A stretch of DNA of 64,000 bases from an uncultured Candidatus Saccharibacteria bacterium (GTDB lineage Bacteria > Patescibacteriota > Minisyncoccia > Phycocordibacterales > UBA9973): positions 1,693 through 65,692 of the forward strand of contig CAZHJZ010000002.1 in the NCBI GenBank assembly GCA_964532495.1, read 5' to 3'. Numbering within the stretch: the stretch's first letter is position 1; the number at the start of each line of letters is the position of its first letter. The notes under the pieces were generated by a model. That model searched no databases. It saw only the letters and a list, made by a program, of their open reading frames with translations, and was not told the DNA's origin. A program made the position numbers and the translations under genes. Below are positions 29,457-59,234 of the stretch, piece by piece.

Positions 29457-29484
29457 AAAAAAAACGCCGTTAGGCGTTTTTTTT
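29457..29484. terminator. bidirectional rho-independent terminator
   Basis: AAAAAAAACGCC-GUUA-GGCGUUUUUUUU. Confidence 0.8.
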
Positions 29485-31849
29485 ATTGAGTGATAGTGGA
29501 ATCTGTTTCTGGCGCTGGAGTCGGATCAGGCGTCGGCTGTGGTTCTGGTGTAAGTTCCGTCTCCATTTGAGGTTGAGTGTCAGATATTACTTCAGGATCA
29601 CTGGCTGGTGGAGTTTCTTCTGGTGTAGTTGGTATTACCGGATCATTATTGAGTTGCCCCTGACTCCCCTGGTTTTGTCCAGAGATTTGATTTTTAAGTT
29701 CAATCAATTGTCGTACATCATTCTCTGTTAAACATTGACCGTCAACACAGAGCTGGTGAGTAGTAACTTTGTCTGAAGAAACATTTCCGAGTCCGTTTGT
29801 GCTACTTCCGAGCCATGACATGAGAGTAGTTTTGAAACTGCTATCACCTATTGTATCAAAATTCTCTATGTTCTTGATCTTAATATCTAATTCACGGATT
29901 GCCTGGAGATTAAGTAAATTTAATCGCGTGTAATTTACTTGTCGATAGCCATCCTTATCAAAGATAACCAAATCTGGAAAGACTGATTCAACATTTTGAG
30001 CAAGCACGCCTAGTTGAGGTATACCGCCAATAAAACCTCGAGACTGTGCTAGTTCGTTCCAGTCAAAAGTTACTAAGTTTACTTGTACAAGCTTATCAAG
30101 CACATTTCCTACTGGCTGAATATTTGTTTTTAAGCGTTCATCTGACGAACAACTTCCACCGAGAATTCCACCGGCAAAGTCTTTCAAACAGCCATTGGAG
30201 CCTGATGTACCGACGCGTATGTCGCCAAATACTTCAAGCTTGTCTCCAGTTGATGGTGTCACCCCTAATCCAACAAAGCCCCCATCCCACACAAGGTTGT
30301 TATTCATAATAAGCGATGTGTTTGCACCAGGAGTAGTCGGGCTGCCTTGTTCCTGCTCATACCGAAGCGTAATCGCTCCATCGACAATATCAATACTGTT
30401 TCGCAAATAGTTATTGATATCGTCAGAATTTTTATTTGAAAAGAGAGATACGCCATTGTTTGTTATATATACTGCTCTGTCGTCGGCACATGGAGTAGCG
30501 CCGGGAATATTGTCGTTACATCGGAAAAATGTTGCATCATCCTTGAACGAGGTGAAGCCGTAGCGCATATTTGTATTGAGGTTTCTTGTTTCCAAAATAC
30601 CCATTGTATTTCCTCCGTTTACTTTTCCGCCAATATCAACTGAAGTGTTTGCCGCATGGTCATTCAACCAAAGTGCTGTGCCATTGTCATCAAGGGCAAG
30701 AAATGAGTCGGTATTCGCATTCATGGTGGAATTCAACTGAACAGAGCCATCATTTGCCATACCAAAGGAATTGTTTGAAGTTGCACCATTGTTGTAAACC
30801 TGGAATAACCCTGGTTTCACATTAAAACTTATATTATCAGTAGAAACAGTTCCTCCCACTTGAAAAGACTTTGCACCATCGTCCCAAGTGAAATCGCTAC
30901 TTCCGCCAAATGCTCCGGTGTTATTAAACTGAATGCTTGTATCTGGTGCAGCCGGATTAGTTGGGCTTCCGCCGCCAACCGTTGCCCATGAGAAGTGACC
31001 AGAACCGTCAGTTACCATAGCTTGGCCATTCGTGCCGTCTACTGTCGGCATAGTAAAGAATGTTCCGTCGTAGTTATAGCGAAAACCACTTCCATCAAGC
31101 TCAATTCCTGTACTAATGCCGCCAGTTGTAGTTGAAGCTAAATTTATGCCACCCGATGCAGGCATGGTTAATACTGAGCCAGTTGAATTTATACCGTTAT
31201 TTGAGAAAAGCTTAATTCGTGGGTTGCCACCATTCCATTCATTTGCAATTGTTGTTGTTTGTTGTCCCGTAAAATCTAAAAGAAAACTCTGAACAGCCTT
31301 ACCTGAACCGACGTTCAAGTCTCCATTTAGCGTTCCGTAGACATATCCGGCTGTTGGATCAACTGATGTTACTCCTGCGAATTGTTCACCACCATCAAGG
31401 AAATTATCATTGTTCCCCATCCTTGTCTCTGTGCCGTCTCCGTGCGTAAAGGTGTTCATGAAGTCGCCGGCTACATGTACTGAATATCCAGGAGTTGTGG
31501 TTCCGATACCTACCTTGCCGTCAGCGAGAACGCGCATCGCCTCAGTATTATTTGTTTTTATTACAAAAGCCTGTGAGTCTGTGGTACCAATGAAGTTAGT
31601 TCCGGGGGTTGTACCTGCATTTCCGTTCAATCCCCATCCGCCAATGTTTTGAAAACAGTTAGACGATCCAGGCGCGCACCCTGGATCAAGGATGCTGTCT
31701 CCTGCAGCATATCCTCCAGATGGCGGAGTAGTCCCGTTCGGCAATTGAGCAGCCATAACCACATACGAATACCCTGTTACCGCAAAGATGCATAGAAATA
31801 GCAAAAAATACTTATTGGCAAATATGCTGCGCCTTGGGTTCATGTACAT
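29483..31849 (-). CDS. secreted tail-fibre-like protein with C-terminal intramolecular-chaperone (peptidase S74-like) motif, paralog 1
   Basis: 788 aa; signal peptide, conserved N-terminal block AQLPNGTTPPSGGYAAGDSILDPGCAPGSSNCFQN, Gly/Asn/Thr-rich fibre-like repeats, ...GGSCSSDERLKTNI... autoprocessing motif, coiled coil, Pro/Thr/Glu-rich tail. Confidence 0.6.
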   Translation of the reverse strand: MYMNPRRSIFANKYFLLFLCIFAVTGYSYVVMAAQLPNGTTPPSGGYAAGDSILDPGCAPGSSNCFQNIGGWGLNGNAGTTPGTNFIGTTDSQAFVIKTNNTEAMRVLADGKVGIGTTTPGYSVHVAGDFMNTFTHGDGTETRMGNNDNFLDGGEQFAGVTSVDPTAGYVYGTLNGDLNVGSGKAVQSFLLDFTGQQTTTIANEWNGGNPRIKLFSNNGINSTGSVLTMPASGGINLASTTTGGISTGIELDGSGFRYNYDGTFFTMPTVDGTNGQAMVTDGSGHFSWATVGGGSPTNPAAPDTSIQFNNTGAFGGSSDFTWDDGAKSFQVGGTVSTDNISFNVKPGLFQVYNNGATSNNSFGMANDGSVQLNSTMNANTDSFLALDDNGTALWLNDHAANTSVDIGGKVNGGNTMGILETRNLNTNMRYGFTSFKDDATFFRCNDNIPGATPCADDRAVYITNNGVSLFSNKNSDDINNYLRNSIDIVDGAITLRYEQEQGSPTTPGANTSLIMNNNLVWDGGFVGLGVTPSTGDKLEVFGDIRVGTSGSNGCLKDFAGGILGGSCSSDERLKTNIQPVGNVLDKLVQVNLVTFDWNELAQSRGFIGGIPQLGVLAQNVESVFPDLVIFDKDGYRQVNYTRLNLLNLQAIRELDIKIKNIENFDTIGDSSFKTTLMSWLGSSTNGLGNVSSDKVTTHQLCVDGQCLTENDVRQLIELKNQISGQNQGSQGQLNNDPVIPTTPEETPPASDPEVISDTQPQMETELTPEPQPTPDPTPAPETDSTITQ

Positions 31850-40683: not shown

Positions 40684-41037
40684 TTATACAAAAGCGATTA
40701 TTGCCATTGGGGCGCCGTCCGACTTGCGGGCTGGTAGTTTCATAACGCGAGTGTAACCTCCAGTTCGAGCGCTATAGCGAGGAGCGATCTTGTCGATCAA
40801 AATCTTCACTGCTGCGTCATTGTTCTGAAGTTTTGCGTTCAAAAGACGTCGTTCGCTTGCTCCGCCAACCTTGGCCTGAGTGAGCATCTTTTCGATGTAA
40901 GGGCGCAATTCCTTTGCCTTTGCTTCTGTAGTCTGGATGCTTTCTTTTTTGATAAGAGAAAGAGCGAGACCCTTCAAAAGCGCGCGGCGCTGGTTCTTGT
41001 TTCTTCCAAATTTTCGTACGTTGTTGTGGTGTCTCAT
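40684..41037 (-). CDS. rplQ: 50S ribosomal protein L17
   Basis: 117 aa, MRHHNNVRKFGRN... L17 signature. Confidence 0.9.
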   Translation of the reverse strand: MRHHNNVRKFGRNKNQRRALLKGLALSLIKKESIQTTEAKAKELRPYIEKMLTQAKVGGASERRLLNAKLQNNDAAVKILIDKIAPRYSARTGGYTRVMKLPARKSDGAPMAIIAFV

Positions 41038-41057
41038 AATAATGCTTTAAAAACTGA

Positions 41058-42038
41058 TTACTTAAGCGCCAATCCGTATTGGTCAAGTGTTCGCTTAATT
41101 TCTTCTATACCCTTTTCCCCCAAACCGTCGATCTCGAGGAGATCTTCTTCCTTTTTGCGAGCAATACCCCCAAGTGTTCGGATATTTGCTGCATTAAGTG
41201 CGTTTAAGGTTCGAGTGGAAAGGTTCAAAGTGTCGATGCGAGTCTTCATGACGTCTGTAACGTCTTCTTTGTCTTTTGAAGAGTCATCCTTGTTTGCTGA
41301 TTCGCTCATTGCTGTAGGTGTCGATACATCTGACTGAACGAGGTCTATCTTGAAGTCAAATATTGCCTGGAGCTGAAGGATCATGATTTCGATTGAGCGT
41401 TCGAGAGCCTGTCGTGCAGTGAGTGTTCCGTCTGTCTCGATGATAATGCGCAATCGGTTATAGTTTGTCTTGTCTCCGTATCGCATGTTCTCTACTTCGT
41501 AGGCAACGCGTCGGATTGGGCTGAAGATAGCATCTACGGCGATCGTGCCGATGTCTACCTTGCCTTTCTGGTGCATGTCTCGTGGAACGAATCCAAGGCC
41601 TTTTTCAATAGTGATTTCGATATTGAGCTTTGAGCTTTTATCGGTGAGCTCACAGATGTACTGCTCTGGGTTCAAGACTTCAACTTGTCCTGTTGCTGAG
41701 ATGTCAGCAGCAGTGACTTCCTTGACGCCTTTTGCTGAGAGAGTGACAACCTGAGGTTCGTCAGTCAAAAGCTTGAAGCGCAATTTCTTGAGGTTCAAAA
41801 GAATAAGAACGACATCTTCTTTGATGCCTTCTACTGTTGAAAATTCGTGTGATACGCCGTCGATTTTGACAGACGTAATAGCCGCACCTGGAAGTGACGA
41901 CAAAATGATTCGGCGGAGGCTGTTGCCGAGGGTATGACCGTAACCCGGATAGAGGTTGTCTATCTCGTATGTTCCCTTGCGCTCATCTTCAGAGACGATG
42001 CGAGGTTTTGACGGTAAAATGATGTTATAGTCTGACAT
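41058..42038 (-). CDS. rpoA: DNA-directed RNA polymerase alpha subunit
   Basis: 326 aa; N-terminal dimerisation domain and C-terminal alphaCTD (LNLSTRTLNAL). Confidence 0.9.
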   Translation of the reverse strand: MSDYNIILPSKPRIVSEDERKGTYEIDNLYPGYGHTLGNSLRRIILSSLPGAAITSVKIDGVSHEFSTVEGIKEDVVLILLNLKKLRFKLLTDEPQVVTLSAKGVKEVTAADISATGQVEVLNPEQYICELTDKSSKLNIEITIEKGLGFVPRDMHQKGKVDIGTIAVDAIFSPIRRVAYEVENMRYGDKTNYNRLRIIIETDGTLTARQALERSIEIMILQLQAIFDFKIDLVQSDVSTPTAMSESANKDDSSKDKEDVTDVMKTRIDTLNLSTRTLNALNAANIRTLGGIARKKEEDLLEIDGLGEKGIEEIKRTLDQYGLALK

Positions 42039-42083
42039 ATATATGTTTTGCTTTGGCGCCGGTAGCTAATCGGCGCAATTAAA

Positions 42084-42686
42084 TTAACGACTATAGAATT
42101 CAAGCACTGATCCAATATTGAGGAATCCTTCGGTGTTTTTTGGTTTTCCAACCACTTTACCTTCGATGCTGTCTTCGGTAAGAGTAACCCAGTCAGGCTG
42201 CTTGTAAGTCTTTAGGCGGTCATTCAAGTTTTTGAAAAGTTCTGTGTTCTTGCTTCCTGCTCGTGGAGTGACGACATCGCCAACCTTGATTCGGTATGAA
42301 GGAACAGTTGTTCGAGTGCCGTTAACAGTAAAGTGACCATGAGAGATCATCTGTCGAGCGAATCGGCGTGTGTGAGCGAGTCCAAGTCGGTATACAACGT
42401 TGTCCAAGCGGCTTTCGAGGATTTCGAAAAGGTGGTCCTGAATTGATCCTTTCATTGATCCAGCTTCTTTCACATAGTTTGAAAGCTGGCGTTCAGTAAT
42501 ACCGTAGCTGAAGCGAATCTTCTGCTTTTCGATAAGCTGCTGTCCGAATTCAGAAAGAGCCTTTGGACGCTTTGTAGACGTCTTTGTCTTTCGCTGAACT
42601 GACTGAAGGAACTTAGGAGTCTGGCATTTTTCAAATACACCAGCACCAAGTCTTCGTCCAATTTTATACTTTGCTTTTTTTTCCAT
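42084..42686 (-). CDS. rpsD: 30S ribosomal protein S4
   Basis: 200 aa. Confidence 0.9.
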   Translation of the reverse strand: MEKKAKYKIGRRLGAGVFEKCQTPKFLQSVQRKTKTSTKRPKALSEFGQQLIEKQKIRFSYGITERQLSNYVKEAGSMKGSIQDHLFEILESRLDNVVYRLGLAHTRRFARQMISHGHFTVNGTRTTVPSYRIKVGDVVTPRAGSKNTELFKNLNDRLKTYKQPDWVTLTEDSIEGKVVGKPKNTEGFLNIGSVLEFYSR

Positions 42687-42691
42687 ATGAT

Positions 42692-43120
42692 TTAAACGCG
42701 ACGTGGCTTCTTAGGCTTAGGACCATTGTGTGGGATTGGAGTTTCATCTTTGATACCAGTAAGTTCAATACCGTGAGTCATGAATGTTCGGACAACTGGT
42801 TCGCGGCCTGAACCGACGCCTCGGATGATAACATCTGCTTCCTTGACTCCAAGTGCAGCTGCCTTCTCACCGATAACATCGCCAACTTTTGAAGCTGCGA
42901 AAGGAGTACCCTTTTTCGCACCTTTAAAGCCGAGAGCACCTGCTGAGGCCCAGAAGAGGGTCGCACCATCTTTGTCTGAGAAGACTACTTTGGTGTTGTT
43001 GAAAGTTGCTTCAATGTGAAGCGTTCCTGCAACGACCTTTTTCTTTGGCGCACGTGAACCTGAGGCTCGTGCTCCGCCGCTTTCGGTACCCTTTTGAGTT
43101 GTGATTCTTTTCTTTCCCAT
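42692..43120 (-). CDS. rpsK: 30S ribosomal protein S11
   Basis: 142 aa. Confidence 0.9.
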   Translation of the reverse strand: MGKKRITTQKGTESGGARASGSRAPKKKVVAGTLHIEATFNNTKVVFSDKDGATLFWASAGALGFKGAKKGTPFAASKVGDVIGEKAAALGVKEADVIIRGVGSGREPVVRTFMTHGIELTGIKDETPIPHNGPKPKKPRRV

Positions 43121-43147
43121 GATAATTGAAACGTTGGTATTAAATGA

Positions 43148-43528
43148 TTATGTCTTAGATTCCTTTCGGCGACCTGATGCCATTGTCTTTCTCACATTGC
43201 CTCGAACCGTGCGTGAGTTAGTCTTTGTTCGCTGGCCTCGTACCGGGAGCTTTCGCATGTGGCGAATTCCGCGATATGCCTTGATGTCTTTCAAACGCTT
43301 GATGTTTGCTGAAATTTCGCGTTTGAGGTTTCCTTCGATCTTGAATTCTTCAATGATCTTACGGATTGCGTTCTCTTCGTCCACTGAAAGGCTGTCTGCC
43401 TTGCGGTTTTCGTCGATGCCGACTTCTTTCAAAACCTTGCGTGATCGGGAAATACCGACACCGTAGAGGGCTGTAAGAGCTACGTAGAGCTTCTTTTCGT
43501 TTGGAATTGTTATACCGAGGATTCTCAT
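43148..43528 (-). CDS. rpsM: 30S ribosomal protein S13
   Basis: 126 aa, MRILGITIP... Confidence 0.9.
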   Translation of the reverse strand: MRILGITIPNEKKLYVALTALYGVGISRSRKVLKEVGIDENRKADSLSVDEENAIRKIIEEFKIEGNLKREISANIKRLKDIKAYRGIRHMRKLPVRGQRTKTNSRTVRGNVRKTMASGRRKESKT

Positions 43529-54253: not shown

Positions 54254-55561
54254 TTAGAAAGGCAAATTCGATGGTGGTTTTGCGGTCTTTGAATCGATAC
54301 GCTTGAATGATGGTGATTCTGAAACCAAACCTGGGAAGTGAAAGATGGTTGCAAGTTCCTCAGTATTTAGTACGAACACATTCGGCGGATTGGATGGGAA
54401 GAAGAATGAGATCGGTTTTGGAAAGTTAAACGAAAGGAGCAGCGGCGGATAGAAGCATGTGCGGAGCTTATAGTACGTAAGCATACGGCCTTTCAATTTC
54501 TCCAACAACTTTCCTGTCGGATCGCTCCATGGGTAGTCGTATTGGGCTGAGTTTACACGCGCGAATTCATTTGACTCCGGGTCAGCATATTGACGCCAAA
54601 TCAAGCGCGAAGCACGGCGAGTATTGTTAAATGTATGAATATCCACAAGCCGTTTATCAGCCAAGATTACTTGTCGGATAAGCACATCGAACACTAACTT
54701 TGCTTGTTTTTCTTTGACACCTTTCACGGTATCTTTCAGATATTCAGGAACACGGGCATCGAACGATGCAGTAAATGATCCATCCGGCGTATCGTTCTTT
54801 TGCGTACGTTTATAAGGCGCAAGCAATCGTTCCAATTCCTCTTGAGATCCATCCATAAATCCTACCTTGTGGCCATGGTGCACATCGCTCACATATCCTT
54901 TTTCAGATTGTCGAACAATAATTTGCAGCCATACCTGCTCTCCTTTTTCGAGGCTGCCCAAAAATTCAATGACCGGCGTGATCGGATCAACCTTATCTTC
55001 TTCTTTCAATCCAGCCTTATCAAGACCATAGTCTTTGTATGTTTTGATCGGATAGGCGTCATGTTCTTTAAGTTTGAACTCGCAGCCCCAGAGATACCAG
55101 TTGCCATCATTTCTGTATCGAGGAATAGCAAGTGTATAGTCTTCTACTTCCGTTACTCGGACTTGAGGATATTGGGCGTAGAGCTGAGTCTCAACCATTT
55201 TCTTGAGACGTGATGGTACTCGTATGACAAATCGCACTTTACCGTCAATGCCGACAAGTTCGAGGGAATACCAAAAGTGAACGGCACCTTGCCAATAAAT
55301 TTCCCATACGCCTTTCATGCTCATATGGTAGAGAGCGTTCGTTAAGAAAAGTTCCATGGCGAGCGGTGTCTTCTGCATTTCTCGAGGAATAGTGACTTCG
55401 AGCATGCTCCATTCAATGCCACCGATAAATCGTTCGCTCACAAAGTGGTGCCACAGGAAAAAAGCTAACCACCCAAGAAGGAGCGGCGCCCAAATGATGG
55501 ACAATTTCCATATGATGGTGAAGATGACAGAAAGAACTGCAATAATGATGGAACCAATCAT
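54254..55561 (-). CDS. membrane protein, function unknown (two N-terminal TM helices + ~380-aa soluble domain)
   Basis: 435 aa, co-directional and tightly spaced with fibre-protein operon. Confidence 0.35.
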   Translation of the reverse strand: MIGSIIIAVLSVIFTIIWKLSIIWAPLLLGWLAFFLWHHFVSERFIGGIEWSMLEVTIPREMQKTPLAMELFLTNALYHMSMKGVWEIYWQGAVHFWYSLELVGIDGKVRFVIRVPSRLKKMVETQLYAQYPQVRVTEVEDYTLAIPRYRNDGNWYLWGCEFKLKEHDAYPIKTYKDYGLDKAGLKEEDKVDPITPVIEFLGSLEKGEQVWLQIIVRQSEKGYVSDVHHGHKVGFMDGSQEELERLLAPYKRTQKNDTPDGSFTASFDARVPEYLKDTVKGVKEKQAKLVFDVLIRQVILADKRLVDIHTFNNTRRASRLIWRQYADPESNEFARVNSAQYDYPWSDPTGKLLEKLKGRMLTYYKLRTCFYPPLLLSFNFPKPISFFFPSNPPNVFVLNTEELATIFHFPGLVSESPSFKRIDSKTAKPPSNLPF

Positions 55562-55573
55562 GGAGTAAGTATA

Positions 55574-56056
55574 CTATAAACCTGATTTGAAATGAACAGG
55601 AATGCTAATATATTTTTTCTGCAATCCAGGAAGCATGTTTTGTATTATGATAGTTCCCTCTTCGCTGAAGAACGAAACGGGAGGATTGAGTGTTGCTTCA
55701 AAATAGTACGGCTTTCCGTCGGCTATATTTGCTGCTGATACAGGAAGATCTACTTTTGAAATTATAAGACCATTCCCTGCAAGCAATGTCGCTGTGCCGA
55801 TGACTCCGTTTACAGGCTCCCAATCGCATCCATTGCCATATCCATATACTTTATAAGGAAAAGATACGGAAGCATCTTTCTTGGGAGCGTATAACGTTAA
55901 TCCACAATCAAGCTTTAGTATTTTTTTATAATTACCCAAGCCGAACGGATGCTGTTCGGTAAAATACCCCATGGCAAAAAGCGCTACCAAGATGCCAAGA
56001 AAAGTAAGAATGATAAACGGTATTATTCCTCTGTTTGTATTGTTTTTTATTTTCAT
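55574..56056 (-). CDS. small membrane-anchored protein (possible Ig-like extracytoplasmic domain)
   Basis: 160 aa; N-terminal TM; overlaps upstream fibre gene by 4 nt (translational coupling). Confidence 0.35.
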   Translation of the reverse strand: MKIKNNTNRGIIPFIILTFLGILVALFAMGYFTEQHPFGLGNYKKILKLDCGLTLYAPKKDASVSFPYKVYGYGNGCDWEPVNGVIGTATLLAGNGLIISKVDLPVSAANIADGKPYYFEATLNPPVSFFSEEGTIIIQNMLPGLQKKYISIPVHFKSGL

Positions 56057-58023
56057 TGGGATGGTTCCGAAACTGGTAACTGATCAGATTGGTTACTTTC
56101 AGTCGGCGGTGCGACTTCCGTCCCTGTAGCAGAATCCACTGAGGCATTTTCTGAGACTTCAGGTACTTCTGGAACTGAAACTTCTGGAACGGGAACTTGA
56201 ACTTCTGAAACTGGTACTTCTGGAACTGGATTGGATACCTGCTGGGATGAATGCAGCTGTGATTGTGAACTTAAAATCTCATCCACTTGTGAACGGTCAA
56301 GGCATGTTTCTCCGTTCGCATCCGCTACACAGATTTTTTCAGTAGTGAGCTTGTGTGCAAAGATATTTTGGATACCATTCCCTGCACTGCTCAACCACGT
56401 TGCTACTTGAGAAATCAATGAATCTGCACTGAGGTTTGAAGAGCTCTCTAGATGCTTTATTTTAATATCAAGTTCTCGAACCGCTTCTACTAAAAGTGGT
56501 GTCACTCCTGCGTAGTTTGCCTGCAAATAGCCATTTGGCGCTGTTGAAACAAGTTGTGGATAGATGGACTGCAGGTTTTGTGCAATAAATCCGATGTGTG
56601 TATCGCTATCTTGCCCCTCTTTCCAATTATAAGTCACTGTTCTCAGTTGCGTGAGTGTTTCGAGGGTTGAAGGTGGTAAATCAGTAATATTTTTTTTCAA
56701 TCGTTCATCAGAAGAACAAGAGATACCTGCTCCTGATGTCGTGTTGACACTACATGAGGTGAAACCGCTACCGGTAATCACCATATCGTTGATTGGATAC
56801 AAAGTTGAACCGATAACCATTTGATTGCTTGCGGTTATCTGTGCCGCGCGGCCAATAGCTATAGAAGCGTTGAGGCCAGGTGCACTTGCAGCAGAGTCTG
56901 ATCCAATAAAGATATTATTACTCCCGGTTTCATTGTTTGCTCCAGCAGTGTCACCCAGTGCTACGTTAAATGAACCCGATGTATTGTTTTGTCCTGCCAA
57001 TGCTCCAAGAAACATGTTGTTTGACCCGAGACTATTCAATTTTCCCGCCTGATAACCAATAATGACATTTGAAAATGGAGAGGTAGTGTTTGCGCCGGCT
57101 TCATAACCAAGCATTACTGAGTTTCCGCCAGTAAGAGTTGAACCTGCCCCCCAGCCAATCAAAGTATTGGCTCCTTGTGCGTCCTGGCTCGTACCTGCGA
57201 ATGCGCCAATAGAGACTGAACGCTGATAGGTTGCCCCTACAGCGCCTATGCCCGCCTGCTTACCAATAGAAATGTTGTCTGTGCCGGAAGTGTTTTTTCC
57301 AGCTGAAAGTCCAATGTTAAGTTTTCCTGCAAAAGAAATATCGAGTATGTTATCAGTTGTTGTTGATCCAAAAGTAAAGCTGCGTGCTACGTCATCAAGT
57401 AAAAATCTCGTACCATTCGCAGCAATATTTGTATCACCGAGAGAAACAGTTCCAGTAGTTCGGCCAATAATTGTTTGAGCAGTGTCATTCACTTCAATCA
57501 ATGTACTATTTCTTTGATCATCTATATCACCAAGCTGAACAAGATCATCTGGCACATGAACGAAAAATGAAGAATACTGGCCGTCATTTACCCCGAAATC
57601 AACCGCGGTTGCACCTACAGTAGAAGCACCGTCATCAAGGTACAAAACTGTCCCATTTCCAGCACTATTGACATCTCCTGCAAAAAACGTACTCGTTGCG
57701 GTATCAATTGTAGTAGCTTTTGTCGCCGCATCTCTCATAAAACCAGCATCGCCGAATACGTTTCCTGAATTATCTGTATACAGCACTTGATCTGCTGCGC
57801 CTCCGATTATTTTTTGTCCAATATAAATACCCGAATTCTGAAAGCAATTTAATGAACCTGGCGCGCAACCCGGTTGAAGAATACTATCGCCAGCATTATA
57901 TCCTCCGCTTGGAGGAAGCGTCCCATCGGCCAGCTGTGCTGAAAATACGACCACTCCATATCCTAGGACGGAGAGAATAGTGACACAAACAGCAAGCAGC
58001 TTCTTATGAGGAATGAGTGTCAT
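56053..58023 (-). CDS. secreted tail-fibre-like protein with C-terminal intramolecular-chaperone (peptidase S74-like) motif, paralog 2
   Basis: 656 aa; signal peptide; AQLADGTLPPSGGYNAGDSILQPGCAPGSLNCFQN; Gly/Asn/Thr repeats; ...GAGISCSSDERLKKNI...; coiled coil; C-terminal (PEVxV)n repeats. Confidence 0.6.
   Translation of the reverse strand: MTLIPHKKLLAVCVTILSVLGYGVVVFSAQLADGTLPPSGGYNAGDSILQPGCAPGSLNCFQNSGIYIGQKIIGGAADQVLYTDNSGNVFGDAGFMRDAATKATTIDTATSTFFAGDVNSAGNGTVLYLDDGASTVGATAVDFGVNDGQYSSFFVHVPDDLVQLGDIDDQRNSTLIEVNDTAQTIIGRTTGTVSLGDTNIAANGTRFLLDDVARSFTFGSTTTDNILDISFAGKLNIGLSAGKNTSGTDNISIGKQAGIGAVGATYQRSVSIGAFAGTSQDAQGANTLIGWGAGSTLTGGNSVMLGYEAGANTTSPFSNVIIGYQAGKLNSLGSNNMFLGALAGQNNTSGSFNVALGDTAGANNETGSNNIFIGSDSAASAPGLNASIAIGRAAQITASNQMVIGSTLYPINDMVITGSGFTSCSVNTTSGAGISCSSDERLKKNITDLPPSTLETLTQLRTVTYNWKEGQDSDTHIGFIAQNLQSIYPQLVSTAPNGYLQANYAGVTPLLVEAVRELDIKIKHLESSSNLSADSLISQVATWLSSAGNGIQNIFAHKLTTEKICVADANGETCLDRSQVDEILSSQSQLHSSQQVSNPVPEVPVSEVQVPVPEVSVPEVPEVSENASVDSATGTEVAPPTESNQSDQLPVSEPSQ
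56150..56235 (-). repeat. imperfect 15-18-nt tandem repeats (coding, PEVPVSEV low-complexity tail of fibre protein 2)
   Basis: repeated (u)acuucuggaac(u/g)g(a/g)a units. Confidence 0.5.
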
Positions 58024-58067
58024 AGTAATATTGAACTAGTATACCAATAAAATACCTTGCAGCGCAA

Positions 58068-58098
58068 TAAAAAAACGCCCACTCAAGGGCGTTTTTTT
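58068..58098 (-). terminator. rho-independent terminator between regulator gene and fibre gene
   Basis: AAAAAAACGCCC-acucaa-GGGCGUUUUUUU. Confidence 0.8.
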
Positions 58099-58100
58099 AT

Positions 58101-59129
58101 TTAAGCTGCAGAGTAGAGTCCCTGCTTGTTCTTTTTGAAATATTTTGGGTTCTGGAGGTTAACGAGGATCGTATTCTTCTTGAGGTATCGTTCCTTCATT
58201 ACGCGATCAACGACATCATCTTTTGAAAGCGGTCCTTCCTTCTTGATGATTTCGGCGATAACATCCCGGACAACACCAGCCTTGTATCCCCATTCAGCAA
58301 GGGCGTAGATGCCGCGGCCGACGAGAATGAATCGCTTGTCTTTAATGAGCTCGTTGTGGCAAGTAGCAGTGTGAGTTTTCTTGCCGAATGTAGCTTCGAT
58401 TGCCTTTGCAACTTCACGGAAGTGCATAGGTGAACCATGCTTTCGCATAACGAGATATGCATAGTCTTTTACTCCGCGAGTCTTTACGTTCTGAGATTCT
58501 GACTTGCCCCATTCGCCCAACGGATTGCGTGACAATTTCTTTGACATTCCAAGCCATCGCTTTGCAACCTCTTCAGTCTTGTATTCAGCGTTCACTTCTT
58601 TCAAGTGTTCGAGGAATCGGCCGATAAGTTCGCTTTCTGGAACGAGTTCGTCGCTTGAAAGTCCTTCGTAAAGTTTCTTGAGTGAGCCATGGACGATATC
58701 AGCGAGGGCTCCGTCGATAGACCAGCGAGCCTTGAAGTGCTCGTCTTCTTTGTGTTTCAAAAATGCGTCAGAGAGAACGAGGTAGAAGTGGAGGTGGTTC
58801 TGAGTAGCTTCATCTTTCGCAATCATCGGAAGAAGTTCTTCTTCGGCAATAAGCGCACCCAATTCACGGACAACGTTTCGAAGTTCTTCGAACGTATCAG
58901 TTTCAGATTTGTATTCGCCTGACTTTCGAATGGCGTTCAGCGCAGTTGCTTCGATTTGGCGAACACGTTCGCGAGTAATGTTATATGCATCTCCGATCGC
59001 TTCAAGCGTCTTTCGCTCGGAACTCTCTCCGAGTCCAAAACGTGAGACGATGACGTCGTACGAACGGTCCTGAAGCGGTGAAAGAATTCGCTTGGTGACC
59101 TGTTTGGGCTTAAATGTAATTTTTGGCAT
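58101..59129 (-). CDS. DNA-binding protein with N-terminal sigma-70 region-4-like HTH and C-terminal HARE-HTH domain
   Basis: 342 aa; DVIVSRFGLGESSERKTLEAIGDAYNITRERVRQIEATALNAIRK (sigma70 r4.2-like) and ...GSPMHFREVAKAIEATFG...DKRFILVGRGIYALAEW (HARE-HTH pattern as in RpoE-delta N-terminus). Confidence 0.5.
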   Translation of the reverse strand: MPKITFKPKQVTKRILSPLQDRSYDVIVSRFGLGESSERKTLEAIGDAYNITRERVRQIEATALNAIRKSGEYKSETDTFEELRNVVRELGALIAEEELLPMIAKDEATQNHLHFYLVLSDAFLKHKEDEHFKARWSIDGALADIVHGSLKKLYEGLSSDELVPESELIGRFLEHLKEVNAEYKTEEVAKRWLGMSKKLSRNPLGEWGKSESQNVKTRGVKDYAYLVMRKHGSPMHFREVAKAIEATFGKKTHTATCHNELIKDKRFILVGRGIYALAEWGYKAGVVRDVIAEIIKKEGPLSKDDVVDRVMKERYLKKNTILVNLQNPKYFKKNKQGLYSAA

Positions 59130-59234
59130 TTGTGTTGTTTATAACTTATTTCACTACTAATAAATTTGTGTTACTCCAGTTTACCATAAGATAATATTAA
59201 GTCAAATTTCTTATTGGCCCTTACATTATAAGGC

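What the first reader, a model, noticed from the sequence alone, without database searches (positions are those of the whole stretch)
58101..59129. Unusual fusion of a sigma-70 region-4 HTH (N-terminal) with a HARE-HTH domain
Residues ~25-70 read DVIVSRFGLGESSERKTLEAIGDAYNITRERVRQIEATALNAIRK, a near-textbook sigma-70 region 4.2 (-35-binding) helix-turn-helix. It sits at the N-terminus of a 342-aa protein that has no regions 2 or 3. Residues ~215-300 match the HARE-HTH pattern known from the RNA polymerase delta subunit (RpoE) N-terminus: ...PMHFREV...I...FG and D.RF..VGRG.YAL..W. This architecture is neither a sigma nor a delta factor. Its position directly upstream of the fibre operon suggests a dedicated transcription regulator or RNAP-associated factor.
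Basis: partly seen in the sequence, partly recalled or inferred. Interest (0 to 1): 0.55.

Follow-up and report, generated by a model that had tools for sequence, protein, structure and literature searches.

The report
Sigma-4 plus four winged-helix protein
The gene is real and does join a sigma-factor promoter-binding domain to delta-subunit-like winged helices. It is not a one-off fusion and not a fibre-gene regulator: it belongs to a very large, highly conserved, uncharacterised protein family of Paceibacteria (candidate phyla radiation) bacteria.

Summary
The ORF is at 58101..59129 on the minus strand and encodes 342 aa.

**Domain calls hold.** Pfam Sigma70_r4 matches aa 16-69 (44.4 bits, cutoff 24.1). 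HARE-HTH matches aa 220-280 (34.6 bits, cutoff 25.9). There are no sigma regions 2 or 3.

**Structure.** A very confident model (pLDDT 96.8) shows a sigma-4 domain followed by four related winged helices. HARE-HTH is the third.

**Sigma-4 module.** It is group-1-like. The residues that align with the known -35 readers of E. coli sigma70 (R584, E585, R588) and their neighbours (R586, Q589) are invariant in 107 family members.

**The fusion is not unusual.**
- More than 8000 protein clusters share this architecture.
- About 1100 clusters at 50% identity match at E<=1e-10.
- At least 537 species genomes carry it, all Patescibacteria/Paceibacteria.
- NCBI already calls it "sigma factor-like helix-turn-helix DNA-binding protein". 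I found no functional study.

**The fibre link fails.**
- The fibre-like gene is found in 1 of 82 related loci.
- A strong terminator separates it from this gene.

**Neighbourhood.** The conserved order is TypA, this gene, DUF8128, YceG, MnmA. The gene has its own promoter, which is strongly conserved in related genomes.

**Best reading (inferred).** It is a housekeeping DNA-binding transcription factor specific for TTGAC-type sites. It is possibly autoregulated and possibly RNAP-associated.

The parts
58101..59129 (-). CDS, 342 aa: sigma-4 plus four winged helices. Member of the Patescibacteria family that NCBI names 'sigma factor-like HTH DNA-binding protein'.
   Evidence: ORF list. Pfam. 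Homologues of 68-92% identity with the same length and domains.
58908..59108 (-). Sigma-70 region 4 domain (aa 8-74; helices 8-16, 21-31, 42-49, 53-69, 71-74). Contains the 4.2 recognition helix TRERVRQIE (aa 52-60).
58719..58901 (-). Winged helix 1 (aa 77-137). Variable and acidic.
   Evidence: AF2 secondary structure. hhalign to WH2, probability 75%. Conservation and charge.
58503..58712 (-). Winged helix 2 (aa 140-209). Variable and near neutral.
   Evidence: AF2. hhalign to WH4, probability 87%. Conservation and charge.
58299..58472 (-). Winged helix 3 = HARE-HTH (aa 220-277). The most conserved domain, and basic.
   Evidence: Pfam HARE-HTH, 34.6 bits. NCBIfam RNAP delta, 27 bits, below cutoff. 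Best PDB sequence hit for the non-sigma part is S. aureus delta, E=0.06. 19 of 58 columns are at least 90% conserved.
58107..58271 (-). Winged helix 4 (aa 287-341). Resembles DUF3320. Conserved and basic.
   Evidence: Pfam DUF3320, 24.1 bits against cutoff 25. hhalign to HARE-HTH, probability 90%. AF2. Conservation and charge.
59178..59205 (-). Putative own promoter: TTGACT, 16 nt, TAAACT preceded by TG (extended -10), about 50 nt upstream of the ATG.
   Evidence: Consensus scan and sequence. Related loci have a matching, strongly conserved promoter at the same place.
58066..58101 (-). Intrinsic terminator hairpin with a GC core (ACGCCC/GGGCGU), flanked by an A-run and a U-run. It starts at the stop codon.
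   Evidence: Sequence. RNA fold: -25.8 kcal/mol, z=-5.5, none of 200 shuffles folds as well.

Best explanation
This is the Paceibacteria-wide 'sigma-4 plus four winged-helix' protein. I read it as a housekeeping, sequence-specific DNA-binding transcription factor, not a sigma factor, not a delta subunit, and not a regulator of the neighbouring fibre gene.

**Shown**
- The N-terminal module is a bona fide group-1 sigma region 4.
- Every residue that aligns with the known -35 readers of E. coli sigma70, and their neighbours, is invariant across the family.
- Four related winged helices follow. The HARE-HTH (WH3) and WH4 are conserved and basic. WH1 and WH2 are variable.
- The gene is a single transcription unit with its own promoter and terminator.
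- In this set of related loci, the protein is almost as conserved as the GTPase TypA.

**Inferred**
- The free sigma-4 module binds TTGAC-type (-35-like) hexamers in duplex DNA without needing RNAP.
- WH3 and WH4 contact flanking DNA, or dock on RNAP in the way the delta N-terminal domain does.
- The protein thereby modulates promoter use genome-wide, by occupying or bookmarking -35 elements or sites next to them.
- It probably regulates its own promoter. That promoter is conserved through the spacer and often carries a second TTGAC one helical turn upstream of the -35.
For: **Domain identity**
- establish the sigma-4 module.
- Invariant R30, T41, L42, G46, R53, E54, R55, R57, Q58 align with sigma70 R562, T572, L573, G577, R584, E585, R586, R588, Q589.
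- R584, E585 and R588 are the genetically and structurally defined -35 readers (PMC2613000).

**Fold and repeats**
- Model pLDDT 96.8, pTM 0.86, with sigma-4 plus four units of three helices and two strands.
- The units are related to one another.
- sigma-4, WH3 and WH4 carry family-mean charges of +4 to +5.

**Spread and conservation**
- Searches show the family's spread.
- Median identity to the window proteins across the related loci: 68% for this protein, 75% for TypA, 37-55% for other neighbours.

**Own transcription unit**
-.

**Conserved promoter**
- The consensus AgTTGACTTTATtt.ATAgTAATGATATTAT appears in 35 species genomes. Its spacer carries 1.23 bits per position, against 0.28-0.45 in the flanks.
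- 35 of 37 occurrences of TTGACTTTAT in 919 kb lie on the gene strand. All of those I checked by position are at this promoter.
- 15 of 73 promoters have an extra TTGAC or GTCAA within 30 nt upstream, where about 4% would be expected. The extra site is mostly 11-12 bp from the -35.
Against: - No binding, expression or genetic data exist. I found no paper on the family.
- Invariance of the sigma-4 residues fits DNA reading while free and DNA reading while docked on the RNAP beta flap equally well.
- The promoter conservation could simply reflect selection for a strong housekeeping promoter.
- The extra TTGAC sites occur in related lineages, so the 15 cases are not independent.
- The identity comparison is biased, because the loci were chosen for similarity to this protein.
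Confidence: 0.45

Rival explanations
1. RNAP-bound accessory subunit, or 'sigma-4 in trans'. The sigma-4 module docks on the beta-flap tip helix as in holoenzyme. The HARE-HTH docks on the beta' shelf/jaw like the delta N-terminal domain. The protein then supplies or replaces -35 recognition for RNAP, or competes with sigma-A region 4.
For: - Both recognisable modules come from RNAP-bound proteins.
- Sigma region 4 is positioned by the beta flap, and this sets the 17-bp spacing (PMC2613000).
- The family aligns with sigma70 R562, F563, I565 and G577, which are core-binding positions by my recollection of mutational studies. R30 and G46 are invariant, and F31 and L33 are the consensus.
- Conservation is close to that of TypA.
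- The only sigma-70-family gene I could retrieve from a genome carrying the family (P0408) has a non-canonical 4.2 helix, VTTSYVNIIKNKAL.
Against: - P0408 still has a region 4 of its own, and it looks like a divergent alternative sigma whose nearest named relatives are Bacteroidota-type RpoD.
- The primary sigma-A of Paceibacteria was not retrieved, so nothing shows that it lacks region 4.
- There is no acidic delta-like tail: the whole protein has net charge +10.
- The NCBIfam delta model scores 27 bits against a cutoff of 42.
- The conserved core-binding residues are also fold-core residues.
Confidence: 0.22
2. Nucleoid-associated or chromosome- or replication-related DNA-binding protein. 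Five HTH-type modules coat, bridge or organise DNA, with no direct role in transcription initiation.
For: - The tandem winged-helix array resembles linker histones, Dcc1/Ctf18, the cullin WHB domain and RPC62 in fold searches.
- Three basic DNA-binding-type modules.
- One relative is fused to a DnaA domain IV HTH (P0249).
- Housekeeping synteny, with no regulator-target pairing.
Against: - Exact retention of the base-specific -35 readers is not expected for a non-specific DNA-coating protein.
- The fold matches are generic winged helices with low whole-chain TM scores (about 0.2).
- The DnaA fusion is a single 5-kb contig and may be a gene-calling artefact.
Confidence: 0.12
3. Reader of modified DNA. 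The HARE-HTH discriminates methylated or otherwise modified bases, as proposed for this domain in restriction-modification systems, and couples modification state to promoter binding through sigma-4.
For: HARE-HTH is fused to restriction endonucleases and N6-adenine methyltransferases. It has been proposed to recognise modified bases (PMC4738411 and PMC3417536).
Against: - There is no conserved linkage to methyltransferase or restriction genes in 85 loci. The one R-M cluster, in L164, is separated from the gene by secDF.
- The proposal for the domain is itself computational.
Confidence: 0.06
4. Dedicated regulator of the adjacent fibre-like gene or operon.
For: The 656-aa Peptidase_S74 / tail-fibre-like gene starts 78 nt downstream on the same strand.
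Against: - The fibre-like gene is found in 1 of 82 related loci, whereas TypA (77), DUF8128 (76), YceG (71) and MnmA (63) persist.
- A strong terminator lies between the two genes.
- By eye, the fibre gene has its own extended -10 signal.
- A second fibre-like gene at 29483..31849 has no such neighbour.
Confidence: 0.03

Closest known systems
Region 4 (domain sigma-4) of group-1 sigma-70 factors (RpoD/SigA)
   Different: - No regions 1.1, 1.2, 2 or 3, so no -10 recognition, DNA melting or main core-binding surface.
- The domain is N-terminal rather than C-terminal.
- Four winged helices follow it.
- There is one extra residue in the 4.1/4.2 loop.
RNA polymerase delta subunit (RpoE) of Firmicutes
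   Same: It shares the HARE-HTH winged helix (Pfam PF05066 above cutoff). The best PDB sequence hit for the non-sigma part is S. aureus delta. The delta N-terminal domain is an RNAP-docking module (PMC7749165).
   Different: - No polyanionic C-terminal region, which is the functional half of delta. This protein is basic overall, at +10.
- The TIGR04567 score is 27 bits against a cutoff of 42.
- The HARE-HTH is the third of four winged helices, not an N-terminal stand-alone domain.
- The phylum is different.
HARE-HTH proteins of restriction-modification systems and eukaryotic chromatin (ASXL, HB1); Aravind and Iyer 2012
   Same: Same domain family. From my memory of that paper's abstract, which the library does not hold, it also mentions bacterial proteins that combine features of the RNAP alpha subunit and sigma factors. 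That would be the nearest published description.
   Different: - No nuclease, methylase or chromatin domains.
- No alpha-CTD is detectable here. Pfam shows no RNA_pol_A_CTD hit at E<=1, and the model shows winged helices only.
- The window has an ordinary rpoA with its own alpha-CTD.
MzaA, the sigma-70-family protein of the MZA anti-phage system
   Same: It is the top NCBIfam and PADLOC hit.
   Different: The match covers only the about 60-aa sigma-4 segment (57.8 bits against a cutoff of 800). There are no defence-system neighbours.
Tandem winged-helix proteins of transcription and replication machines (RPC62 of Pol III, Dcc1/Ctf18, UFL1-DDRGK1)
   Same: An array of consecutive winged helices. 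These are the best whole-chain Foldseek hits.
   Different: TM scores are about 0.2 and sequence identity 9-12%. This is an architectural analogy only.

Membership tests
Sigma-70 family sigma factor | Region 2 (core binding, -10 recognition and melting) | tested here: not met
   No Sigma70_r2, r3 or r1_2 hit even at E<=1. Residues 77-342 fold as four winged helices.
Sigma-70 family sigma factor | Region 4 HTH with -35-reading residues | tested here: met
   PF04545 scores 44.4 bits against 24.1. R53, E54, R55, R57 and Q58 are invariant and align with sigma70 584-589.
RNA polymerase delta subunit (RpoE, TIGR04567) | N-terminal HARE-HTH domain that scores as delta | tested here: not met
   TIGR04567 scores 27 bits against a cutoff of 42. 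The PDB delta hit has only E=0.06.
RNA polymerase delta subunit (RpoE, TIGR04567) | Long acidic, disordered C-terminal region | tested here: not met
   No disordered segment: 334 of 342 residues have pLDDT >=90. WH4 has net charge +6 and the whole protein +10.
RNA polymerase delta subunit (RpoE, TIGR04567) | Binds RNAP at the beta' shelf/jaw | not testable with these tools
   This needs multimer modelling or biochemistry. rpoC is not in the window, and chimeric inputs are not accepted.
HARE-HTH domain family (PF05066) | Profile score above the Pfam gathering threshold, and a winged-helix fold | tested here: met
   34.6 bits against 25.9. Three helices and a two-strand wing at aa 220-277. The signature D.RF..VGRG.YAL is conserved.
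Patescibacteria 'sigma factor-like helix-turn-helix DNA-binding protein' family (NCBI name) | Full-length homology with the same domain order and length | tested here: met
   The 120 best hits are 68-92% identical, cover 98-100% of the query, are 334-366 aa long, and carry PF04545 plus PF05066. Representatives at 35-54% identity are also full length.
Patescibacteria 'sigma factor-like helix-turn-helix DNA-binding protein' family (NCBI name) | Orthologous genomic position | tested here: met
   The order TypA, gene, (small ORF), DUF8128, YceG, MnmA is shared with 60-77 of 82 loci. The DUF8128-YceG part is also kept in distant members.
MZA anti-phage system (MzaA) | Full-length MzaA match and partner genes | tested here: not met
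   57.8 bits against a cutoff of 800, over the sigma-4 segment only. There are no PADLOC hits in the neighbours.

The most novel reading that the evidence does not exclude
Paceibacteria carry an extra general transcription component found in no studied bacterium. It would be a near-universal, TypA-level-conserved protein that reads -35-type TTGAC elements with a sigma-4 domain detached from sigma, and bridges them to RNAP or flanking DNA through a HARE-HTH-containing winged-helix array. In effect it would be a trans-acting region 4 or a sixth RNAP-associated subunit, able to alter or replace -35 recognition by the primary sigma.
Probability: 0.2. Interest if true: 0.8.

Novelty: new variant of a known kind. 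Interest (0 to 1): 0.5.

Why it matters
Patescibacteria are a large part of bacterial diversity, have tiny genomes, and have very few recognisable transcription regulators.

In this set of related loci, this protein is nearly as conserved as a translational GTPase across a whole class. It keeps the exact promoter-reading residues of the housekeeping sigma factor while lacking the rest of sigma. That makes it a good candidate for a lineage-specific core component of gene expression.

If it binds -35 elements or RNAP, it would change how promoter recognition is understood in these organisms. It would also be a natural example of a detached sigma domain.

At a practical level, the result corrects two tempting misreadings. 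Some depositors annotated the protein as "RNA polymerase sigma factor".

Tried and rejected
**Fibre-operon regulator.** Rejected on comparative grounds and because of the terminator.

**Alpha-CTD-like domain.** I looked for one because I recalled it from the 2012 HARE-HTH abstract. Pfam shows none, and the model shows winged helices only.

**Paralogues or a sigma factor in the window.**
- There is no second copy.
- No sigma gene appears among the ORFs I annotated.

**Split-sigma idea.**
- The only sigma gene within reach (P0408, next to L064) has its own region 4, although a divergent one.
- The primary sigma-A of Paceibacteria could not be fetched.
- The idea is therefore neither confirmed nor excluded.

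**Phage or defence origin.**
- PADLOC and PHROGs match only the sigma-4 segment.
- IMG/VR holds one distant full-length relative among 216 sigma-4-only hits.
- BFVD has no similar whole-chain fold.

**Aravind and Iyer 2012.** The paper is not in the library, so its content is cited from memory only.

**afdb50 fold library.** Unavailable.

**DUF8128 neighbour.** The model is absent from the local Pfam copy and no paper mentions it.

**N-terminally extended relatives.** P0186 is a SecF fusion. SecF is the upstream neighbour in L164, so this is probably a gene-calling artefact.
Full report
**1. The observation**

The ORF lies at exactly 58101..59129, but on the minus strand. The plus-strand reading of those coordinates is full of stops.

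Pfam supports both domain calls above its curated cutoffs:
- Sigma70_r4, aa 16-69, E=1.2e-11, 44.4 bits against a cutoff of 24.1.
- HARE-HTH, aa 220-280, E=2.6e-8, 34.6 bits against a cutoff of 25.9.
- A near-threshold DUF3320 match at aa 285-312, 24.1 bits against 25.

No sigma region 1.2, 2 or 3 is detected even at E<=1.

NCBIfam places the N-terminal segment closest to region 4 of RpoD, RpoS and MzaA-type sigmas. It gives a sub-threshold match of the HARE-HTH to the low-GC RNAP delta subunit, 27 bits against 42.

**2. Anatomy**

*Model.* An alignment of 107 family members gave an AlphaFold2 model with mean pLDDT 96.8 and pTM 0.86. The model has:
- a four- to five-helix sigma-4 domain (aa 8-74);
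- four units of three helices plus a two-strand wing: WH1 77-137, WH2 140-209, WH3 220-277 (the HARE-HTH) and WH4 287-341.

*Repeats.* Profile-profile comparison of the four units shows they are related to one another:
- WH3 to WH4, probability 90%.
- WH2 to WH4, probability 87%.
- WH1 to WH2, probability 75%.

*Fold searches.*
- The other units match generic DNA-binding winged helices such as forkhead, MecI, SAMD1 and linker histone.
- The best whole-chain matches are other tandem winged-helix proteins, at TM only about 0.2.

*Sequence search against solved structures.* A family profile hits group-1 sigma region 4 chains at E about 1e-20. For the non-sigma part, the best single-sequence PDB hit is S. 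aureus RNAP delta, which is marginal at E=0.06.

*Conservation and charge.*

| Module | Conservation | Family-mean net charge |
|---|---|---|
| sigma-4 | conserved | +4.3 |
| WH1 | variable | -2.7 |
| WH2 | variable | +0.3 |
| WH3 (HARE-HTH) | most conserved | +4.7 |
| WH4 | conserved | +4.9 |

**3. The sigma-4 module keeps the -35 readers**

The alignment to E. coli sigma70 gives the correspondences below. The target has one extra residue in the 4.1/4.2 loop.

| Target | E. coli sigma70 | Conservation in family |
|---|---|---|
| R22 | R554 | at least 90% |
| R30 | R562 | invariant |
| F31 | F563 | consensus residue |
| L33 | I565 | consensus residue |
| T41, L42 | T572, L573 | invariant |
| G46 | G577 | invariant |
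| T52 | T583 | at least 90% |
| R53 | R584 | invariant |
| E54 | E585 | invariant |
| R55 | R586 | invariant |
| R57 | R588 | invariant |
| Q58 | Q589 | invariant |

R584, E585 and R588 are the residues shown by genetics and by the T. aquaticus sigma-4/DNA structure to read positions -31 and -33 of the -35 element (PMC2613000, read). This establishes homology and retained determinants. It does not show binding.

**4. It is a large, catalogued, uncharacterised family**

*Size.*
- The word-indexed search hit its ceiling of 8000 clusters. The best 120 are 68-92% identical, cover 98-100% of the query, are 334-366 aa long, and all carry PF04545 plus PF05066.
- The exhaustive search of 1.84 billion representatives found 577 clusters at E<=1e-30 and 1108 at E<=1e-10. 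Nearly all of the top 150 are full length at 35-54% identity.

*Taxa.* All named sources are Patescibacteria: Paceibacterota/Paceibacteria, Nomurabacteria, Campbellbacteria, Ryanbacteria, the Parcubacteria group and Minisyncoccia. Some third-party MAGs are labelled Saccharibacteria. Their loci share the gene order of the Paceibacteria-labelled genomes.

*Names.* Source names include "sigma factor-like helix-turn-helix DNA-binding protein", "HTH domain-containing protein", "hypothetical protein" and, once, "RNA polymerase sigma factor, partial".

*Literature.* Full-text searches found no paper on the family. The paper that defined HARE-HTH (Aravind and Iyer 2012) is not held. From memory, its abstract mentions bacterial proteins that combine alpha-subunit and sigma features. 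I found no alpha-CTD in this protein.

**5. Genomic context refutes the fibre link**

I ran tblastn with the window's neighbouring proteins against 82 related loci.

| Neighbour | Loci with a match (of 82) |
|---|---|
| TypA | 77 |
| DUF8128 membrane protein | 76 |
| YceG | 71 |
| MnmA | 63 |
| RNase T | 34 |
| Small ORF after the gene | 14 |
| 656-aa Peptidase_S74 / tail-fibre-like gene (56053..58023) | 1 (L003, the 94%-identical closest relative) |

- The conserved same-strand order is TypA, this gene, an optional small ORF, DUF8128, YceG, an optional RNase T, MnmA.
- In members only 35-40% identical, the upstream neighbour changes (LeuRS, SecF, HTH_8 proteins), but DUF8128 and, in two of the three loci, YceG and MnmA stay downstream.
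- In the window, the gene has a promoter-like TTGACT-16-TGgTAAACT about 50 nt upstream.
- A hairpin of -25.8 kcal/mol (z=-5.5) flanked by A- and U-runs starts at the stop codon. The gene is therefore its own transcription unit.
- The fibre-like gene is a lineage-specific insertion behind a terminator.
- The window also holds an ordinary rpoA with an alpha-CTD.

**6. Conservation level and promoter**

*Identity to the window proteins, median across the related loci:*
- TypA 75%
- this protein 68%
- MnmA 55%
- DUF8128 51%
- RNase T 48%
- M50 protease 38%
- YceG 37%

The loci were selected for similarity to this protein, so its figure is biased upward.

*Promoter.*
- Most loci have a canonical -35/-10 promoter upstream of the family gene.
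- In 35 species genomes it reads AgTTGACTTTATtt.ATAgTAATGATATTAT.
- The 17-nt spacer carries 1.23 bits per position. The flanks carry 0.28 and 0.45 bits.
- 35 of the 37 occurrences of TTGACTTTAT in 919 kb lie on the gene strand. All of those I checked by position are at this promoter.
- 15 of 73 such promoters carry a second TTGAC or GTCAA within 30 nt upstream of the -35, where about 4% would be expected. It is mostly 11-13 bp away.

These lineages are related, so the counts overstate independence.

I read this as a strong, constrained promoter. It may carry an extra sigma-4-type site, which would fit autoregulation. That last step is inference.

**7. Mechanism**

*Best reading (confidence about 0.45).* The protein is a housekeeping, sequence-specific DNA-binding transcription factor.
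- Its detached sigma-4 reads TTGAC-type hexamers.
- WH3 and WH4 add contacts with DNA or RNAP.

*Main rival (about 0.22).* It is an RNAP-bound accessory subunit.
- sigma-4 would sit on the beta flap and the HARE-HTH on the beta' shelf/jaw.
- The delta N-terminal domain binds there (PMC7749165).
- The flap positions region 4 relative to the -10 (PMC2613000).

*Attempted test of the split-sigma version.* The only sigma gene within reach is P0408, about 5 kb from the family gene in L064. It has regions 1.2, 2 and 4. Its 4.2 helix is non-canonical (VTTSYVNIIKNKAL), and its nearest named relatives are Bacteroidota-type RpoD. It looks like an alternative sigma.

*Weaker rivals.*
- A nucleoid or replication-related role (about 0.12).
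- A modified-DNA reader (about 0.06). This follows the proposal for HARE-HTH in PMC4738411 and PMC3417536, but no R-M linkage is conserved here.
- The fibre regulator (about 0.03).

**8. Comparison and novelty**

- It works partly like sigma region 4, and perhaps like the delta N-terminal domain.
- It fails the membership tests for both sigma factors (no region 2) and delta (no acidic tail, below the family cutoff).
- It is a full member of the Patescibacteria family that databases already list.
- As a gene it is ordinary for its lineage. As a kind of system it is an uncharacterised recombination of known RNAP-associated modules.
- I rate it a new variant of a known kind, with interest 0.5.

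**9. Verdict**

- The claim that the fusion is unusual does not hold, and neither does the fibre link.
- The family deserves experimental attention because of its spread, its conservation and its intact -35-reading residues.

Noticed in passing
L009-L082 upstream regions (for example L024 5903-5977); window 59178-59205: The family gene's promoter is conserved through its spacer in 35-47 species genomes (AgTTGACTTTATtt.ATAgTAATGATATTAT), while the flanks are randomised. 15 of 73 promoters have a second TTGAC or GTCAA about 11-13 bp upstream of the -35, against about 4% expected. This may be a site for the protein's own sigma-4 module.
   Followed up: partly
window 56053-58023 (-) and 29483-31849 (-): Two large Peptidase_S74 (endosialidase-chaperone) / tail-fibre-like genes of 656 and 788 aa. 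The first matches many PHROG tail-fibre families. It is an insertion that is absent from 81 of 82 related loci.
   Followed up: partly
window 54254-55561 (-); L163 11120-12319; L164 11150-12700; L165 11108-12463: A membrane protein is the most persistent neighbour of the family, even at 35-40% identity. Precomputed tables annotate the homologues in L001, L163 and L164 as DUF8128. In L164 it is followed by a TraG/VirD4-like ATPase. The model is not in the local Pfam copy, and no paper mentions it.
   Followed up: partly
L083 4983-5903: A 306-aa distant relative (27% identity, same sigma-4 plus HARE-HTH plus WH4 motifs) sits on an IMG/VR contig among small phage-like genes. It is the only full-length relative found in the viral collection.
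   Followed up: partly
L064 7306-7921 (protein P0408, 312 aa): A sigma-70-family gene lies about 5 kb downstream of the family gene in a Nomurabacteria genome. Its 4.2 helix is non-canonical (VTTSYVNIIKNKAL) and its region 2.4 is altered (WWIRSNILN). Its nearest named relatives are Bacteroidota-type RpoD.
   Followed up: partly
proteins P0249 (552 aa) and P0186 (659 aa): In P0249 the family is fused to a C-terminal DnaA domain IV HTH, on a single 5-kb contig. P0186 is a SecF fusion. SecF is the upstream neighbour in L164, so P0186 is probably a gene-calling artefact.
   Followed up: no
window 40684-43528 (-): An ordinary rpsM-rpsK-rpsD-rpoA-rplQ cluster. RpoA keeps its alpha-CTD, so this genome has a standard alpha subunit.
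   Followed up: yes
window 58024-58065 (-): By eye, the fibre-like gene has its own TTGCGC-18-TGgTATACT promoter-like signal between the terminator and its ATG.
   Followed up: no
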